Counted from the first letter of the stretch, positions 16,901 through 62,859 are shown. The stretch: 64,000 nucleotides of DNA from Euglena gracilis (GCA_039621445.1 CP154954.1:24688954-24752953), one strand, 5' to 3'. Notes: generated from the letters alone by a model not told the origin. A program made the numbers and translations.

Positions 16901-19590
16901 TTGAGAGCAAAATTTTGCGATTTGATGCCCCATTCCCACACTGTACGCGTTTGTGTTGCTTGCACCACACTTATGATGATGATCAGCACACGCTCCATAT
17001 GCTCCAGCTACAAGTTTTGGTATCTCCCGATCCACAGAAGTTGCCATATGCTGTGAAAATGACTTTTTTTTAATCAAGCGGTGCAAACCGCCTCCGTTTT
17101 CTAGCACCCCCTCCCCCCCCCCCCGGGCAGGGCTGTACGGGAAGGCCTGGTGGGGGGGGTCGGACCCCCCACCAAAGGTGAGGGGGTCGTGGGAGGTGGG
17201 GGGTGGGGTCGACCCCCACCACCCACCAGGGCACCCGCTCAAAAAAAAATTTCTTTTGCCTCCTTGTGTGGTCCAAAGTGTGCCGGCCATGTTCTGGCAG
17301 CAACAGCCCCCTCCCTGCACTGACAGCACAGGCCCCCCGCCCCATCACGCCGACTCAGTAGCTCGGGGCCCTCCATCACACCGGTGGCCCCGGCCAACAC
17401 CCCACGCCTCAGGCGGTCGCCTGAGAAGAACCGGCATTCCGACAAGCCCTTTCCTTTTGTTGTGACGGGGCGCTTCTCCGGTTTTCGAGACCAGAAACAC
17501 CCCTCTTCCCCTGGGGTCGGTTATTTTTACCTATTCTCTGGTTTGACCCTAAACGCATCTTTACCCTTAAATCGCTGATGCCCAACATGCTCTGCATACA
17601 TTTTGGGACAGTCTCTAGGGAGGAGACCCTGCATCGACGCAGGCAAGCACCTCCAGCGACAAATCCCGACAAATCTGACAAATTCAACAATTATGGAAAT
17701 TTAGCATGTGCCTCTAGTAATATACCCAGTTCATTTTTGCTTTATTTTTTGGGGACGAGATTTGGGGGTTTGCTTTGCTCGTAGGTTGTCATAACCCAAA
17801 TTCACGCTCCACGTCATCAATGATGTTTTTGGTTTGTATGTGTACCGCGAAAGGAGTTCCTATGCCATAGAAAGTCTGATAAGGGAAGATCACCATCCCA
17901 TAGAGAAACCATATGGTGGACCACACCTTATTTGGCTTGGAAAAGAAGTCCCTGACTGGTTTTTGGAAGAGTGTAAATTAAACCGAATTCCCAGAACAAC
18001 AATTGACAAAGAAACAAAAGGCAAAGAATATCTACGGCTTCTGCTTCTGGAGGGTTCATGAGAGTACCCCCCCCCTCCGGGGTACACAGGGAAAACGAAG
18101 GCAGAGCATTCTTCGATTGGGCTGCTTCAACGGGAGGGGATACATCTTTCCACAGGGTTCTGAAGGCACACATTTGGAATGCAATTTTTGAGCTTCATTG
18201 AGCTTCCGCATAGCCTCCGCATGGTTTCCTGGGGTGCCTTTGCAGAGACTCTGCAGAGGCTTTTGAGGGGAACGAAACGGGATCGCAGTTGTCACCTTCC
18301 GCCCCCTTGGCTCCACAAATATGCTCAGGGTTTGGCATCCCCCGTTGTACGTATGATTCCACACAATTGGCCCCTTGGGGGGGGGGGTCATTTCCGTTTG
18401 GGCAATTTGGCCCGTTTTCCTGTGCTGTCCACCGGGGTGACGGCCGGCGTCGATCACCTGTTCTGACGTCCAGTTGGGGGAGGGGACGATGCAAGCAGAA
18501 TAGAAACCATGTTTCTGATCCCTGTGAGGAGGCGTTGAGCCGGTGGCCAAGTGACAGTGTTGCTGGATGTGCAACGGCTTGGGCCTATCACCAAATGCTG
18601 GGGCTTCCCTCTTTGATGGCACCATATATATACCCGGCTCCCGCCCCCTGCCCGCCCACCCGCCCGCCTGCCCCCCCCCCCCTGCCTGTCGACCTGACTT
18701 GCACGTGTGTCGATTCACTCCCGCACAGACAATTGCCCACTCCCGCACAGGCCCTCGCCGACTGCTGGCCCCCTCATCACCCTGCCATTTCCAAAGCCAG
18801 TCTCTGTCCGGGCTTTTTTTAAGGAAGGTCGCACCCCCCAGGGAAATGCAATGGGCAGGGGGTTTGGCATTTCAGTCCCCCCCCCTGAGTGGTTTGGAGT
18901 GGGTACTGCTATGGTAGTTTTTTCTTTGGGTTTTTTTTTGCTCTTTCGACGCCTCACCGGAATTTGAGGCACCACAAGGGTGGAGACAGCGAAGCCTGCT
19001 CTGACTGACTGTCTGACCCAACCCACTCCCGCGAAAAGCTCCCCAGCCTCGACTTCTGACCATCCTGCACAGCTCCTCGCCCCGTCCTAGACACCACAGC
19101 TTTCCGTCTGGTTCTGCAGTCTTCAGCACCCCAGCCGATGCCTGATACCGGCACAGAACGTTGACTCTTAGTGCTTTCAGATCCTGTTTCACGGTATGTG
19201 TTCGAAGAGTGCCGAGAACGCAACTGGGGATGCAGGCGGGCATCAACAAAGTCTTGCTCGTTCTTGCTGTCTTTTTTCTCTCCATTGTGCAGGTGCACCA
19301 GTGCACCCCCTAAAGAAATCCTTTCTGGAGTAGGCAGATGGGGAGTGGTGAATCAAAGGTGAAGGGTCTAATCGAACATTTCTGGTTTTCACCCATATTT
19401 TGTTTTCGGTGTGCCTGGGGAACCGCCTCTTCTTTCTCCTCCTTCTCTTCCTCTTTCTCTTCTTCTTCAAGGAACTTTTTCCCTCCAAGCAGGGTGAAAT
19501 CCCTGGGTCCGAGGGGGTATTACCGGGTCTGGCCGACCTTTTTCCCCATAGAGAAATGCCCACACAGCATAGCTTTAACGAGTTTGACAT
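4931..19590 (-). CDS. Putative multi-exon hypothetical gene, frame unresolved (candidate exons near 19590-19524, 19310-18959, 17430-17330, 14300-14164, 13615-13082, 13007-12909, 9221-9085, 6947-6776, 4993-4931)
   Basis: Non-repetitive islands bounded on the minus strand by AG and GT (e.g. cgcag|gcagac...gagcgg|gtgagg). Several phases are compatible, but more than one frame is open and no homology is recognisable. Confidence 0.3.
5419..5852. mobile_element. MITE-like repeat with TAACCCCCC..AAATAAGA inverted ends
   Basis: Imperfect TIR bounded by TA; closely similar inverted copy at 13629-14079. Confidence 0.75.
5858..6078. repeat. (GT)n/(GCGT)n microsatellite
   Basis: Directly visible. Confidence 0.98.
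6352..6414. repeat. (ACC)n microsatellite
   Basis: Directly visible. Confidence 0.97.
7380..9025. repeat. Low-complexity block: AT-rich, (CTCTTC)-rich, TCAATTAGGGGGG motif cluster, AT-rich, (CA)-rich
   Basis: Directly visible compositional segments. Confidence 0.9.
13145..13548. mobile_element. Young MITE with perfect 17-bp TIR and 8-bp TSD
   Basis: CAGGCTTTTGCTTAAGG / CCTTAAGCAAAAGCCTG; CCCCCGGC on both sides. Confidence 0.93.
13629..14079. mobile_element. Inverted copy of the 5419-5852 repeat family
   Basis: Reverse-complement similarity along most of its length (AATAAGACCC motifs, catgctaaatgtca core). Confidence 0.8.
15105..15465. repeat. (GCGT)n/(GT)n microsatellite
   Basis: Directly visible. 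Confidence 0.98.
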
Positions 19591-19810
19591 GGAAGAGTTA
19601 GCCCGAGGAACATGTGATGGGCCATTTATCAAAAATACACAATGTGGTGTCCCTTAAACCACAAGAAGGAGAAGAAGAAGAAGAAGAAGAAGAAGAGGCG
19701 GAGGAGGGGGAAGAGGAGGAGGTGGTGGTGGTGGAGGAGGAGGAGGATGAGGGGGAAGAGGAAGGAACACTGCACTTTGCCCACCTATTTGTCCAACCGT
19801 TGCCATCACC

Positions 19811-61600: not shown

Positions 61601-62859
61601 AAGCTACAGAGATATATGCCATACCGAACTGAACTGCCTGGCAGTTCCAGATGCAGCAAAATACACAAATCCAACCCCCCCTGCCAGAGACCCCCCACCC
61701 GCCTGGGAACACACCATGTGTTTGACGTAGTTTTCCGCCGACCCACCGGTGACTCCGTGCAGGATGATCAGCGTGGGTGCCGCCTCGAGCGACGCCGAGC
61801 GCAGTTCCTCCAGGGGCACGGTCCAGTCCAGCGCGACGCTCCCCCCGCACCCGGGGTGTGGCTTCCGTGTGGAGAGCAGCCCCCCCCCCCCCCCATGGCC
61901 AGCCAGCTCCCCCCCAGGGTGTTCTCCAATGCTGGCGTACACCCAGCAGGTGTGATGGCTGGCACCCGTGGCATCACGCGAATCTTTTGTGAAATTGTCG
62001 CAGATTCATGGCCACCACGCAATTTTGCAAGTTTTTAGGGCCATAGATTCACTTGCTCAAGCATCGGACAGTGACAGTACTTCGTCGTTGGACAATTTGG
62101 CCAGGGGGAGATGCAGGAGGGGGGCCCATCCAAAGAAGCCAGGACCCGCACGTCAGACATTCGGGCCAACTCCCTGTGATACTCCACCTGTGGAAGGTAC
62201 GAAAGACCACGACAATCATTACCTCCCAGAAACACTGTGCACTGCAAATGAATGGATCAACCTCCTCCTTCTGTTTGGAAATCTTTGCATGGAGGAATGC
62301 CCCGTGGGAGATCAGCTGGACAGTCCAGTTATCCGCAAGGCGGGGGGCGTATGGACACCCATCTGCACACATGGTGCACTTTCCCATTCGCTGGCCCCCG
62401 CCAGCGATGTGGGGCGCGTCCCACACCCGAGGGCTGCGGCGGAACAGCGACGCGAAAATGGTCTGGAAGTGGCCGTTGGTGCACCACGGCGGCGGCCGGT
62501 AGCACTCGAAGAGGGCCCGGCAGGCCACGACCCAGCGGGCGACCTGCGACCCGGGCGGGGCCAGGGCTGCGCGGGAAGGCCCTGGCCCAGGGGGGGGGCA
62601 GACTTTCATTTGGTGCGCCGCAGCCAAGTTTGCCGTGGCGCAATTTTTTTTTCCGCGGCGCACGCGGTCACAAAACTTCGGTGCCGCGGTGCACGCGGTG
62701 CAGAAAAAATTTTCCGCGGTGCACTAAATGAAAGTCTGGGGGGGGGGGTCAGCCTCCCACACCAGCCATGGCGTTTCCGGGCTTCGGGGTCAGCCCTGCA
62801 CGTGGCCTGCACCTGCGGCGGCTGCGCGAGGTGGCTGCTGTAGTGCGCCGCCCGGAGGG
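52638..62859 (-). CDS. Alpha/beta hydrolase of the ABHD1/2/3-YheT-Eht1 family. Exons ~62859-62802, 62556-62427, 62187-62152, 61846-61715, 61078-61024, 59902-59818, 59580-59505, ~54985-54839, 54138-54026, 53399-53287, 52987-52859, 52645-52638
   Basis: Motifs NGHFQTIF, YHRE..D|GGSVALDW, ILHGVTGGS..NYV, VVFNQRGC, VGFSMGANVLVKYLGE (catalytic Ser), EFD..TAP.FGF..YY, NAEDDPI (Asp), GGHIAWLEG (His). Start codon unresolved (possible ATG at 62952 across a homopolymer). Confidence 0.92.
52646..52858 (-). other. MITE / probable nonconventional intron just before the stop codon
   Basis: ccc-CAGGGCTGTGCGGG...CCCGCACGCCCTG-ccaat; flanks CCCGTCCC/CCAATCCC. Confidence 0.65.
52988..53286 (-). other. Nonconventional intron
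   Basis: G|gac-CAGCGGC...GCCGCTG-cggcc|AA gives ALAS-EHVAMVTTRCGGH. Confidence 0.85.
54480..54775. repeat. (CA)n microsatellite
   Basis: Directly visible. Confidence 0.96.
56879..59218. mobile_element. TIR-bounded composite: palindrome arms flanking a tandem array
   Basis: CAGGGTTACGGTAGGAGGATG / CATCCTCCTACGGTAACCCCCTG; GGGGGCAAT near both ends; arms made of ~43-bp CTCGAG-rich units. Confidence 0.7.
57372..58885. repeat. Tandem array of 16 units of 78/79/98/112 bp
   Basis: CAACTGTTCGAGGGCCCCAAAATAACAAA (or a close variant) recurs at 57374, 57453, 57551 ... 58826. Confidence 0.95.
59903..61023 (-). other. Nonconventional intron
   Basis: GGCT|gcc-CAGGGTGGAC...GTTCGCCCTG-gggct|GT restores QRGC-GDSKLTSP; flanks GGGCTGCC/GGGCTGTG. 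Confidence 0.9.
61847..62151 (-). other. Nonconventional intron (CGG...CCG) that begins with GT
   Basis: GAC|gtg-CGGGTCCTGGCTTC...GAAGCCACACCCCG-ggtgc|GGG restores D|GGSVALDW. Confidence 0.88.
62557..62801 (-). other. Nonconventional intron of the CAGGGCTG family
   Basis: AC|gtg-CAGGGCTG...CAGCCCTG-gcccc|G is in frame (QVQAT-PGSQVARW). Confidence 0.7.

What the first reader, a model, noticed from the sequence alone, without database searches (positions are those of the whole stretch)
17128..62798. One TIR family (CAGGGCTG..CGGGAA.GCCTGG) occurs both as free MITE and as intron in different genes
The same terminal motif is seen at 17128, 19927-19998, 24124-24686, 33572-33718 (free, inside an intron), 52651-52855 and 62562-62798. 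Four of these coincide with inferred intron borders in two unrelated genes on opposite strands. This is introner-like behaviour, but without spliceosomal GT-AG borders.
Basis: partly seen in the sequence, partly recalled or inferred. Interest (0 to 1): 0.78.

Follow-up and report, generated by a model that had tools for sequence, protein, structure and literature searches.

The report
Euglena nonconventional introns are MITE copies
A short inverted-repeat mobile element of Euglena sits both inside exons, where the cell's known non-GT-AG ("nonconventional") splicing removes it exactly, and inside other introns as an inert copy, which gives direct support to the old idea that these odd introns began as transposons.

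Summary
All five two-ended segments lie exactly where stated, bounded by CAGGGC..GCCCTG inverted ends. CAGGGCTG occurs 16 times against 3.0 expected.

The window is Euglena gracilis or a close relative: its exons match proteins named EG_transcript_6081 and EG_transcript_17332.

- **Removed from mRNA:** copy C (24124-24686) is skipped by RNA reads with no possible GT-AG placement. Copies B (19927-19998) and F (62562-62798) are absent from the transcript-derived proteins.
- **Inert copies:** H and G lie inside GT-AG introns, D inside another nonconventional intron, and A upstream of the gene.
- **Unresolved:** E, at the very end of an open reading frame.

B, C and F fit the published Euglena nonconventional-intron code (N3-CAG...CTG-N5/6|purine). 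So do 10 of the 14 non-GT-AG introns mapped in the two host genes.

The copies carry imperfect 8-9 bp flanking repeats. Other CAGG-ended elements in the window have perfect 8-bp repeats. Since N3+N5 = 8, splicing removes the element plus one target-site duplication.

Euglenid nonconventional introns have been proposed to derive from MITEs since 2013. The new part is family-level evidence and the 8-bp arithmetic. Sequence similarity among copies is weak beyond about 20 nt.

The parts
17128..17238 (+). Copy A: a left (type-1) end, CAGGGCTGTACGGGAAGGCCTGG plus a G-run/TCGGAC/C-run hairpin. The right end is decayed. It lies 2.6 kb upstream of the ATG of the + strand gene.
   Evidence: ATG position
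19927..19998 (+). Copy B, a 72-bp minimal element. With 3 nt before and 6 nt after it (19924-20004, 81 nt) it is intron 1 of the AAA_28 gene: GGC-CAG...CTG-CCTCCC|G. The flanking repeat matches 8/9.
   Evidence: Absent from protein P0004, which reads ...[12 protein letters not shown].... Flanking repeat. Fold with paired ends, z -2.99.
23372..23535 (+). Copy H: a degenerate copy (CAGGCCTG... to ...CAACCCCG) lying wholly inside the GT-AG intron 23241-23636.
   Evidence: intron defined by RNA reads and by protein mapping
24124..24686 (+). Copy C, 563 bp, with a T-rich GCGCATTTTT interior. With 3 nt before and 5 nt after it (24121-24691, 571 nt) it is intron 7 of the AAA_28 gene: GAG-CAG...CTG-GCCGG|G. 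The flanking repeat is GCTGGGAG/GCCGGGAG, 7/8.
   Evidence: RNA joint 24118>24690: 13 reads in X21, one contig of depth 330 in X15, 0 reads in X24, 0 contigs in DNA run X1. The reading frame stays open. Fold z -6.74 with paired ends.
26559..26740 (+). A relative with CAGGGA..TCCCTG ends. It forms the nonconventional intron 26556-26746 (GGC-CAG...CTG-AGGGCC|G).
   Evidence: RNA joint 26555>26747: 22 reads in X21 and the X15 contig. The fold is not better than shuffles, z +0.67.
31460..31547 (+). Copy G: a solo type-2 end (reverse complement CAGGGCTGTACAGGAATCCCATGGGTGG...) inside the GT-AG intron 30851-32196. The left limit is approximate.
33572..33718 (+). Copy D, 147 bp, with a 7/8 flanking repeat. 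It is nested inside the last mapped nonconventional intron (33170-33802) of the AAA_28 gene, beside another element at 33373-33496.
52651..52855 (-). Copy E, 205 bp, with a 6/8 flanking repeat. It starts 41 nt after the last residue of the available hydrolase protein, at the end of the open frame. Whether it is spliced is unresolved.
   Evidence: fold z -3.25 with paired ends
62562..62798 (-). Copy F, 237 bp. With 3 nt before and 5 nt after it on the - strand (62557-62801, 245 nt) it is a nonconventional intron of the hydrolase gene: GTG-CAG...CTG-GCCCC|G.
   Evidence: Absent from protein P0009, which reads ...QVQAT|PGSQ.... Fold z -6.03, but the two termini are not paired to each other in the minimum-energy structure.
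19852..33859 (+). Host gene 1: an AAA_28 P-loop protein equal to EG_transcript_6081. Seventeen introns were mapped: 7 GT-AG and 10 non-GT-AG. One further junction, 27352-28879, is unresolved.
52896..62848 (-). Host gene 2: an alpha/beta-hydrolase equal to EG_transcript_17332, mapped from residue 21 to the last residue. Ten introns were mapped: 6 GT-AG and 4 nonconventional, all four fitting the code.
3578..3868 (.). A younger element of a different family, with a perfect 14/14 inverted end CAGGGGTTTTTTTA and a perfect 8-bp flanking repeat CTCCCAAG. Elements of the same kind: 13145-13548 (8/8), 30269-30558 (8/8, inside a GT-AG intron), 33373-33496 (8/8), 41800-42304 (7/8) and 35088-36746 (12/14 ends, 7/8).
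   Evidence: alignment of 3578 with 30269, 82% column identity

Best explanation
The segments are decayed copies of a non-coding inverted-repeat DNA element (a MITE) of Euglena gracilis or a very close relative.

Anatomy. The ends read CAGGGCTG...CAGCCCTG. Inside the ends lie G-run/TCGAC/C-run hairpins. The two ends differ: one is type 2, CAGGGCTGTRCAGGAATCCC..., and the other is type 1, CAGGGCTGTACGGGAAGGCCTGG.... Insertion leaves an 8-bp (sometimes 9-bp) target-site duplication directly abutting CAG and CTG.

Fate of a copy. A copy that lands in an exon is removed from the pre-mRNA by the euglenid nonconventional-intron pathway. That pathway reads CAG and its pairing partner CTG, and cuts 3 nt upstream of CAG and 5-6 nt downstream of CTG, before a purine. 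Because 3+5 = 8, the cut-out piece is the element plus one copy of the duplication, so the original reading frame is restored. Copies that land in existing introns or between genes remain as inert elements.

Shown here:
- the repeats, ends and flanking repeats;
- removal of C from RNA;
- absence of B and F from transcript-derived proteins;
- the fit to the published code;
- the nested copies.

Inferred: spread by a DNA transposase (hAT-like or Merlin-like, judged from the 8-bp duplication) and the enzymology of excision. The papers read call the machinery unknown and report circular RNA products.
For: Organism.
- Exons match eukprot EG_transcript_6081 (98% over the exon) and EG_transcript_17332 (94%). 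This naming is that of the E. gracilis transcriptome paper (PMC6366073, passages).

RNA evidence.
- Seven joints were seen in 22380-28540. Four are GT..AG.
- Three are non-canonical: 24118>24690 (copy C), 24726>25365 and 26555>26747.
- None of the seven occurs in DNA run X1 (0 contigs each).
- The spliced sequence gives an uninterrupted 240-aa frame carrying the P-loop.

Protein mapping.
- It reproduces these joints and adds B and F as removed segments.
- Of 27 mapped introns, 13 are GT-AG, 10 fit N3-CDG...CH'G-N5/6|R, and 4 do not fit. Random placements fit 0.07 of 14 on average, with a maximum of 2.
- The code is that of Nomura et al. 2025 (PMC12501133; abstract and sections 5, 7, 8, 11, 12 read).

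Flanking repeats.
- B 8/9, C 7/8, D 7/8, E 6/8, F 5/8.
- Window null: P(>=7/8) = 0.0067, P(>=6/8) = 0.02, P(>=5/8) = 0.053, P(>=8/9) = 0.0016.
- Four other CAGG-ended elements have perfect 14/14 ends and perfect 8/8 repeats.

Inert copies: H, G and D lie inside other introns.

Coding capacity: none of 393 open frames of 90 aa or more hits a transposase family.

Folds: C z -6.74, B z -2.99 and E z -3.25, each with paired ends.
Against: - Sequence kinship of the copies is weak. Only 4 of 13 ends are recovered at E<0.01 when left out of the profile, and 5 are not found at all. 'One family' could therefore be several families sharing a required end motif.
- No transposase, no empty site and no insertion polymorphism was seen. 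No genome was available to search.
- Removal of B and F rests on proteins predicted from a transcriptome of unknown strain, not on reads laid here. A strain that lacks those insertions would look the same.
- X24 gave 0 reads across the C joint, though its depth was low throughout.
- F's two termini do not pair with each other in the minimum-energy fold.
- The two other RNA-verified nonconventional introns fold no better than shuffles (z +0.67 and +1.01).
- E would break the purine rule, since its next exon would start with C.
- F's flanking repeat (5/8) is barely above chance.
- A 9-bp repeat (B, and the 26556 intron) does not suit hAT.
- Four of the 14 non-GT-AG introns do not fit the code.
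Confidence: 0.85

Rival explanations
1. The copies are not related by transposition. The shared ends are convergent, because any nonconventional intron needs CAG...CTG and pairing ends, so similar termini evolve repeatedly from unrelated sequence.
For: The leave-one-out profile recovers only 4 of 13 ends at E<0.01. The code itself demands CAG/CTG and nearby pairing (PMC12501133). Interiors differ greatly between copies.
Against: The shared motif reaches 16-23 nt, well beyond the 3 nt the code needs. Copies with the same ends lie where no splicing signal is needed: H and G inside GT-AG introns, A upstream of the gene. The 8-9 bp flanking repeats are not required for splicing yet are present. 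Elements with perfect ends and perfect 8-bp repeats exist in the same window.
Confidence: 0.06
2. The elements spread as introns through RNA. The excised circular intron RNA is reverse-spliced or reverse-transcribed into new sites, rather than moved by a DNA transposase. The inverted ends serve splicing, not transposition.
For: Nonconventional introns are reported to leave as full-length circular RNA (cited in PMC11282704 and PMC12501133; the original paper was not read). No transposase was found in the window.
Against: Fixed-length 8-bp duplications that directly abut the inverted ends are the mark of a staggered DNA cut. Copies occur in both orientations on the + strand and inside introns. 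DNA transposons that make 8-bp duplications are reported in E. gracilis (Merlin; PMC8101967, passages).
Confidence: 0.07
3. B and F are not spliced. They are insertions present in the sequenced strain but absent from the strain that gave the transcriptome, so the proteins simply reflect an empty site.
For: B and F are supported only by proteins P0004 and P0009, from a transcriptome of unknown strain. Removing an element plus one duplication is exactly what an empty site looks like.
Against: All 14 non-GT-AG introns of the two genes would have to be strain-specific insertions. For C, the RNA contig of X15 shares the variant letters at 25440 and 26796 with DNA run X1. X1 has a contig of single-copy depth (47) reading into the left end of C, and no empty-site joint. 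Sequences of this design are spliced after knock-in (PMC12501133).
Confidence: 0.02

Closest known systems
Nonconventional (NC) introns of euglenids, with the code 5'-N3CDG...CH'GN5-6|R (Nomura et al. 2025, PMC12501133; Milanowski et al. 2014/2016, PMC3935182, PMC4770533)
   Same: There are no GT-AG borders. CAG sits at +4..+6 and CTG at -8..-6. The ends pair, short direct repeats lie at the junctions, and a purine starts the next exon. These introns coexist with GT-AG introns in one gene. B, C and F meet every sequence feature tested.
   Different: Nothing differs in kind. [quoted passage not shown] Here one recognisable repeat family is seen in both states. The 8-bp duplication equals N3+N5, a link I did not find stated in those parts.
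Introner elements of Amoebophrya (Farhat et al. 2021, PMC7789003)
   Same: Both are repeated non-canonical introns with 8-20 nt inverted repeats and short direct repeats overlapping the borders, with no GT-AG, and are thought to be MITE-like.
   Different: The organism is a different one (a dinoflagellate parasite). The inverted-repeat motifs start with TTA or TAT rather than CAGGG, and the direct repeats are 3-5 nt. My first guess of a dinoflagellate was dropped once the Euglena protein matches appeared.
Spliceosomal introners (Micromonas, Aureococcus, Polarella/Symbiodinium; Roy et al. preprint 10.1101/2020.10.14.339549; review PMC11282704)
   Same: In both, a DNA transposon with inverted ends and a target-site duplication becomes an intron on insertion. 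Removal takes out the element plus one duplication.
   Different: Those elements carry or recruit GT/GC/GA..AG sites and use the spliceosome. Here no allowed placement gives such sites.
hAT and Merlin DNA transposons
   Same: Both make an 8-bp target-site duplication. hAT ends of the form YARNG (recalled, not from a call) would fit CAGGG. Merlin families with 8-bp duplications are reported in E. gracilis, and the superfamily makes 8-9 bp duplications (PMC8101967).
   Different: No transposase was found, so superfamily membership is untested. Merlin ends are described as 5'-GG, which does not fit CAG. hAT does not explain the 9-bp cases.

Membership tests
Euglenid nonconventional introns | No GT/GC-AG at any junction placement compatible with the mRNA | tested here: met
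   For C, all six placements allowed by the 5-nt slide give GG..CC, GG..CG, GA..GG, AG..GG, GC..GA or CA..AG (read). For B (slide 0-9) and F (slide 0-2) no placement is GT/GC-AG.
Euglenid nonconventional introns | CDG at +4..+6, complementary CH'G followed by a 5-6 nt spacer, and a purine as the first exon base | tested here: met
   B is GGC-CAG..CTG-CCTCCC|G, C is GAG-CAG..CTG-GCCGG|G, and F is GTG-CAG..CTG-GCCCC|G. Random placements fit 0.07 of 14 on average. E would not meet the purine rule.
Euglenid nonconventional introns | RNA secondary structure that brings the intron ends together | tested here: inconclusive
   Ends are paired in the minimum-energy fold for C (z -6.74), B (z -2.99) and E (z -3.25). 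F folds strongly (z -6.03), but its termini are not paired to each other.
Euglenid nonconventional introns | Absent from mature mRNA while present in genomic DNA | tested here: met
   For C: 13 reads in X21 and one X15 contig skip it, and 0 contigs of DNA run X1 show the joined form. For B and F the evidence is only indirect, from transcript-derived proteins.
Euglenid nonconventional introns | Excised as a full-length circular RNA, after the conventional introns, by non-spliceosomal machinery | not testable with these tools
The property is taken from papers.
Euglenid nonconventional introns | The host is a euglenid | tested here: met
   Exon translations match eukprot EG_transcript_6081 and EG_transcript_17332 at 98% and 94%. 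Both proteins map onto the window exon by exon. The naming is used for E. gracilis.
MITE (non-autonomous inverted-repeat DNA transposon) | Terminal inverted repeats | tested here: met
   The first 14 nt of the two ends match 12/14 in B, 9/14 in C and 10/14 in F. See the end alignment.
MITE (non-autonomous inverted-repeat DNA transposon) | Target-site duplication of fixed length abutting the ends | tested here: met
   The duplication is 8-9 bp and imperfect: B 8/9, C 7/8, D 7/8, E 6/8, F 5/8, compared with the window null. Sister families have perfect 8/8 repeats.
MITE (non-autonomous inverted-repeat DNA transposon) | Many dispersed, mutually similar copies | tested here: inconclusive
   Eight copies or ends lie in 64 kb, but only 4 of 13 ends are recovered at E<0.01 in the leave-one-out test. 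The genome-wide count is not available. The DNA word depth over the left end of C is about 4228, against about 60-120 in most nearby bins, but G/C runs may inflate it.
MITE (non-autonomous inverted-repeat DNA transposon) | A cognate autonomous element with a transposase, or evidence of mobility (empty sites) | not testable with these tools
   No transposase family appears among the 393 open frames of 90 aa or more in the window. No genome is held. No empty-site joint appears in X1 for C.
Spliceosomal introners | The element supplies or recruits GT/GC(/GA)-AG splice sites | tested here: not met
Amoebophrya introner elements | Strain-specific inverted-repeat motifs starting with TTA or TAT, 3-5 nt direct repeats, and a dinoflagellate host | tested here: not met
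   The ends start with CAGGG, the repeats are 8-9 nt, and the host proteins are Euglena.

The most novel reading that the evidence does not exclude
The euglenid nonconventional splicing code is tuned to one superfamily of DNA transposons, those with CAG-ended inverted repeats and an 8-bp target-site duplication. The fixed cut positions, 3 nt before CAG and 5 nt after CTG, add up to the duplication length. Every insertion of this superfamily into an exon is therefore erased without a scar at the RNA level. The pathway would then be in effect a transposon-neutralising system, and these transposons would be the source of most Euglena introns. The family in this window would be the first member caught in both states, and its constant orientation relative to host transcription (6 of 6 copies) would point to a strand-specific requirement.
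Probability: 0.5. Interest if true: 0.72.

Novelty: new member of a known kind. Interest (0 to 1): 0.5.

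Why it matters
How euglenids came to have most of their genes split by introns that ignore the GT-AG rule is an open question. The papers I read still call the MITE origin a suggestion (2013; 2024 review; 2025).

A repeat family that is seen as a spliced nonconventional intron in two genes and as an unspliced passenger elsewhere, with target-site duplications, makes that hypothesis directly testable genome-wide. One can count copies in each state, date them, and look for the transposase.

The observation that N3+N5 equals the 8-bp duplication gives a concrete reason for the odd asymmetric spacers of the splicing code. It also predicts which transposon superfamily to look for.

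The limits are plain. This is one 64-kb window, the copies are old and weakly similar, and no transposase or mobility was seen.

Tried and rejected
- **Whole genome and earlier findings.** Neither was available.
- **Rfam.** There were no matches at gathering thresholds.
- **Dinoflagellate or Amoebophrya origin.** This was my first working idea, from the composition and the introner papers. The idea was dropped when the exons matched Euglena transcript proteins.
- **Sequencing-run search.** No RNA holder was listed among the indexed holders. The RNA evidence came from raw-read runs added by species label and from X15, whose 'RNA' label was a guess. Its 1921-nt contig crosses the exon joints.
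- **Open-frame continuity across excised copies.** This was uninformative in such GC-rich sequence.
- **The loose end after 27351 (GTGTTCG...).** It was not found in the window. Only its second half matches, at 28886. The junction 27352-28879 stays unresolved, and three residues (VFG) of P0004 have no place there.
- **Status of E.** P0009 ends 41 nt before the element, and both the spliced and the retained readings end the protein within a few codons.
- **Young elements.** The elements with perfect ends at 3578, 13145, 41800 and 35088 show no convincing coding frame across their insertion sites.
- **Literature.** Searches for a published repeat-family or hAT link in Euglena found none in the held library: nonconventional introns + euglenids; Euglena + nonconventional intron + transposable element + MITE; Euglena gracilis + genome assembly + hAT + DNA transposon; Euglena + introner. 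The 2021 J Mol Biol circular-RNA paper, figures, and supplements were not seen and may bear on this.

Full report

Yes. The 8-mer CAGGGCTG occurs 16 times on the two strands, against 3.00 expected from dinucleotide-preserving shuffles, and none of 100 shuffles reached 16. A looser 16-mer (CAGGGCTGTNCGGGAA, up to 3 substitutions) gives 14 hits against a mean of 2.6 and a maximum of 8 in 60 shuffles. The 23-mer with up to 3 mismatches gives 2 hits against 0.01 expected.

The site at 17128 is a lone left end.

I found two further copies. H runs from about 23372 to 23535, with degenerate ends. G is a lone right end at 31547.

The ends come in two forms:
- type 1, CAGGGCTGTACGGGAAGGCCTGG followed by a G-run, TCGAC and a C-run;
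- type 2, CAGGGCTGTRCAGGAATCCC..ATGGGTGGTGGG followed by a G-run.

Complete copies carry one end of each type.

The kinship is nevertheless weak. In a leave-one-out profile test only 4 of 13 ends came back at E<0.01. One scored 0.065, three scored between 0.9 and 9.4, and five were not found. The full profile finds nothing beyond the 13 training ends. 'One family' therefore means a shared terminal 8-23 nt plus a common architecture, not close copies.

**2. What organism, and which genes?**

No genome is held for this window. Pfam scans of all 393 stop-to-stop frames of 90 aa or more gave only sub-threshold fragments, the relevant ones being AAA_28 on the + strand, and Maf and PBP on the - strand. 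No transposase appeared.

I first suspected a dinoflagellate such as Amoebophrya, whose 'introner elements' look similar. Two searches with exon-bearing frames settled the matter.
- 26605-27009(+) matches 'eukprot:EG_transcript_6081' (575 aa, PF13521) at 98%.
- 52779-53018(-) matches 'EG_transcript_17332' (366 aa, PF00561/PF12146) at 94%.

That naming is used for the Euglena gracilis transcriptome (PMC6366073, passages). Both proteins map onto the window exon by exon with exact peptide matches.

**3. RNA evidence.**

Only one read-laying run was allowed.

Seven joints appeared in RNA.
- Four are GT..AG: 23240>23637, 23690>24028, 25456>26520 and 26900>27219.
- Three are not: 24118>24690 (571 nt skipped, 5 nt ambiguous), 24726>25365 (638 nt) and 26555>26747 (191 nt).

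The 571-nt skip is copy C (563 bp) plus 8 nt. It is supported by 13 reads in X21 and by a 1921-nt contig of depth 330 in X15. X24 gave no read there, but its depth was low throughout.

None of the seven joints is present in the DNA run X1. X1 also has a contig of single-copy depth reading into the left end of C, and it shares variant letters at 25440 and 26796 with the X15 RNA contig.

Joining the eight exons gives one open frame of 240 aa with the P-loop GGPCGGKTT. It is identical to the matching stretch of P0004. None of the six placements allowed for the C joint gives GT/GC..AG (read).

**4. The whole picture from protein mapping.**

The + strand gene runs from the ATG at 19852 to at least 33859, with 17 mapped introns. 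One junction (27352-28879) is unresolved, because three residues (VFG) and the matching RNA loose end are not in the window.

The - strand hydrolase gene runs from 62848 to 52896 with 10 introns.

Of the 27 introns, 13 can be placed as GT-AG and 14 cannot. The fate of each copy is as follows.

| Copy | Position | Status |
|---|---|---|
| A | 17128-~17238 | 2.6 kb upstream of the ATG |
| B | 19927-19998 | intron 1 of the + gene; the protein reads ...SFPP\|GSLPSSPQ..., skipping 81 nt = 3+72+6 |
| H | ~23372-23535 | inside the GT-AG intron 23241-23636 |
| C | 24124-24686 | intron 7 of the + gene |
| G | ~31460-31547 | inside the GT-AG intron 30851-32196 |
| D | 33572-33718 | inside the last mapped nonconventional intron (33170-33802) |
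| E | 52651-52855 | unresolved, at the end of the hydrolase frame |
| F | 62562-62798 | first mapped intron of the - gene (...QVQAT\|PGSQ..., 245 = 237+8) |

E begins 41 nt after the last residue of P0009. If spliced by the code, the protein would end ...AAPSQ* or ...AAPSND*. If retained, it would end 24 residues into the element. The next exon would start with C, not a purine. E therefore stays unresolved.

**5. What it is.**

Euglena has a described second class of introns, the nonconventional introns. They lack GT-AG, their ends pair, short direct repeats lie at the junctions, and the machinery is unknown.

Nomura et al. 2025 (PMC12501133; abstract and sections 5, 7, 8, 11, 12 read) defined the required signature by knock-in as 5'-N3CDG...CH'GN5-6|R. 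They found it in 61.2% of such introns in E. agilis.

All three RNA-verified non-GT-AG introns fit it. So do B and F, and so do 10 of the 14 non-GT-AG introns overall. Four do not fit. Random placements of the same lengths and slides fit 0.07 of 14 on average, with a maximum of 2. The segments are thus ordinary members of this known class.

**6. Why the copies look like transposons.**

The 8 (or 9) nt directly before CAG and directly after CTG repeat each other:
- B 8/9, C 7/8, D 7/8, E 6/8 and F 5/8;
- the CAGGGA-ended intron at 26556, 6/9.

In the window null, P(>=7/8) = 0.0067, P(>=6/8) = 0.02, P(>=5/8) = 0.053 and P(>=8/9) = 0.0016.

A general scan for C[AG]GG...CC[TC]G pairs with at least 11/14 complementary ends found other elements with perfect 14/14 ends and perfect 8/8 flanking repeats, at 3578-3868, 13145-13548, 30269-30558 and 33373-33496. 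One at 41800-42304 has 7/8. Two of them (3578 and 30269) are 82% alike along their length.

The window therefore holds several families of CAGG-ended elements that duplicate 8 bp on insertion.

Because the splicing code cuts 3 nt before CAG and 5 nt after CTG, the excised piece equals the element plus exactly one duplication, so the pre-insertion frame is restored. Where the flanking repeat is 9 nt (B, and the 26556 intron), the cut uses the 6-nt spacer. In both cases that is the position followed by a purine.

I did not find this arithmetic stated in the parts of the papers I read. Figures and supplements were not seen.

**7. Structure.**

As RNA, C (z -6.74), B (z -2.99) and E (z -3.25) fold with the two termini paired. 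F folds strongly (z -6.03), but its termini are not paired to each other in the minimum-energy structure. The other two verified nonconventional introns fold no better than shuffles. Global stability is therefore not the signal.

**8. What is inferred, not shown.**

- That the family moved by a DNA transposase. An 8-bp duplication with CAGGG ends suggests hAT (the end consensus is recalled, not from a call). Merlin elements with 8-bp duplications are reported in E. gracilis, but with 5'-GG ends (PMC8101967).
- That removal is by the circular-RNA pathway (papers cited).
- That B and F are spliced rather than absent from the transcriptome strain.

**9. Comparison and novelty.**

[quoted passage not shown] The proposal is repeated as likely in a 2024 review (PMC11282704). 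A 2025 paper still describes the origins as 'unclear'.

Four library searches found no paper describing a repeat family shared by nonconventional introns and non-intron sites in Euglena.

The window adds family-level evidence, clear 8-bp duplications, and a reason for the 3+5 spacing.

**Verdict.** The finding is real and correctly read. It is a new member of a known kind, of moderate interest.

Noticed in passing
window 33170-33802 (+) and 59909-61029 (-); also 60722-61020: A second end motif, CAGGGTGGACCT, starts nonconventional introns in both host genes on opposite strands. It also bounds a 299-bp inverted-repeat segment inside the - strand intron. This may be another family behaving the same way.
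   Followed up: partly
copies B, C, H, D (+ strand gene) and E, F (- strand gene): In all 6 copies that can be oriented, the type-2 end lies 5' and the type-1 end lies 3' relative to host transcription. Under random orientation this has a two-sided chance of about 0.03. The end types were assigned by eye.
   Followed up: partly
window 27352-28879: The mRNA (the loose end, and residues VFG of P0004) contains about 7-8 nt that are absent from the window between exon 27219-27351 and the exon starting near 28878, which abuts a (TGTA)n array. This is either a micro-exon I could not find or an assembly or strain difference at the microsatellite.
   Followed up: partly
GT-AG introns, e.g. 26901-27218 (GGTGTGG at both ends) and 59587-59823 (- strand; CCACAGGTGC at both ends): Conventional introns also carry direct repeats of up to 7-11 nt at their borders. 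These are the 'slidable introns' reported for E. agilis, and the repeats hint that some GT-AG introns may also have an insertion origin.
   Followed up: no
window 24234-24645 (interior of copy C) and 35626-36027: The GCGCATTTTT-type interior repeat has a summed DNA word depth of about 0.6-1.0 million in run X1, against about 60-120 for most nearby bins. It is therefore an extremely abundant repeat in the genome.
   Followed up: no
window 56908-59121, inside the 4.5-kb GT-AG intron 54988-59494 of the - strand gene: There are large tandem arrays with units of 34, 43, 78 and 112 nt, bracketed by inverted 43-nt arrays at 56908-57230 and 58909-59121.
   Followed up: no
window 20705-21319, 21414-23116, 28966-29210, 29285-29508: Four non-GT-AG introns do not fit the published code. 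The one at 28966-29210 has 13/16 complementary ends (CGGCCCGCGCGCCGTC / CGGGCCGCCCGCCGTC) that begin at the junction itself, with no 3-nt spacer. This may be a second rule.
   Followed up: partly
window 43481-45338 (-) and 48238-48552 (-): Fragments of a Maf-like gene (three exon-sized Pfam hits, best E 2.2e-05, all below the curated cut-off) and of a PEBP-like gene lie on the - strand. The AT skew changes sign near 37 kb, so + strand genes lie to the left and - strand genes to the right.
   Followed up: no
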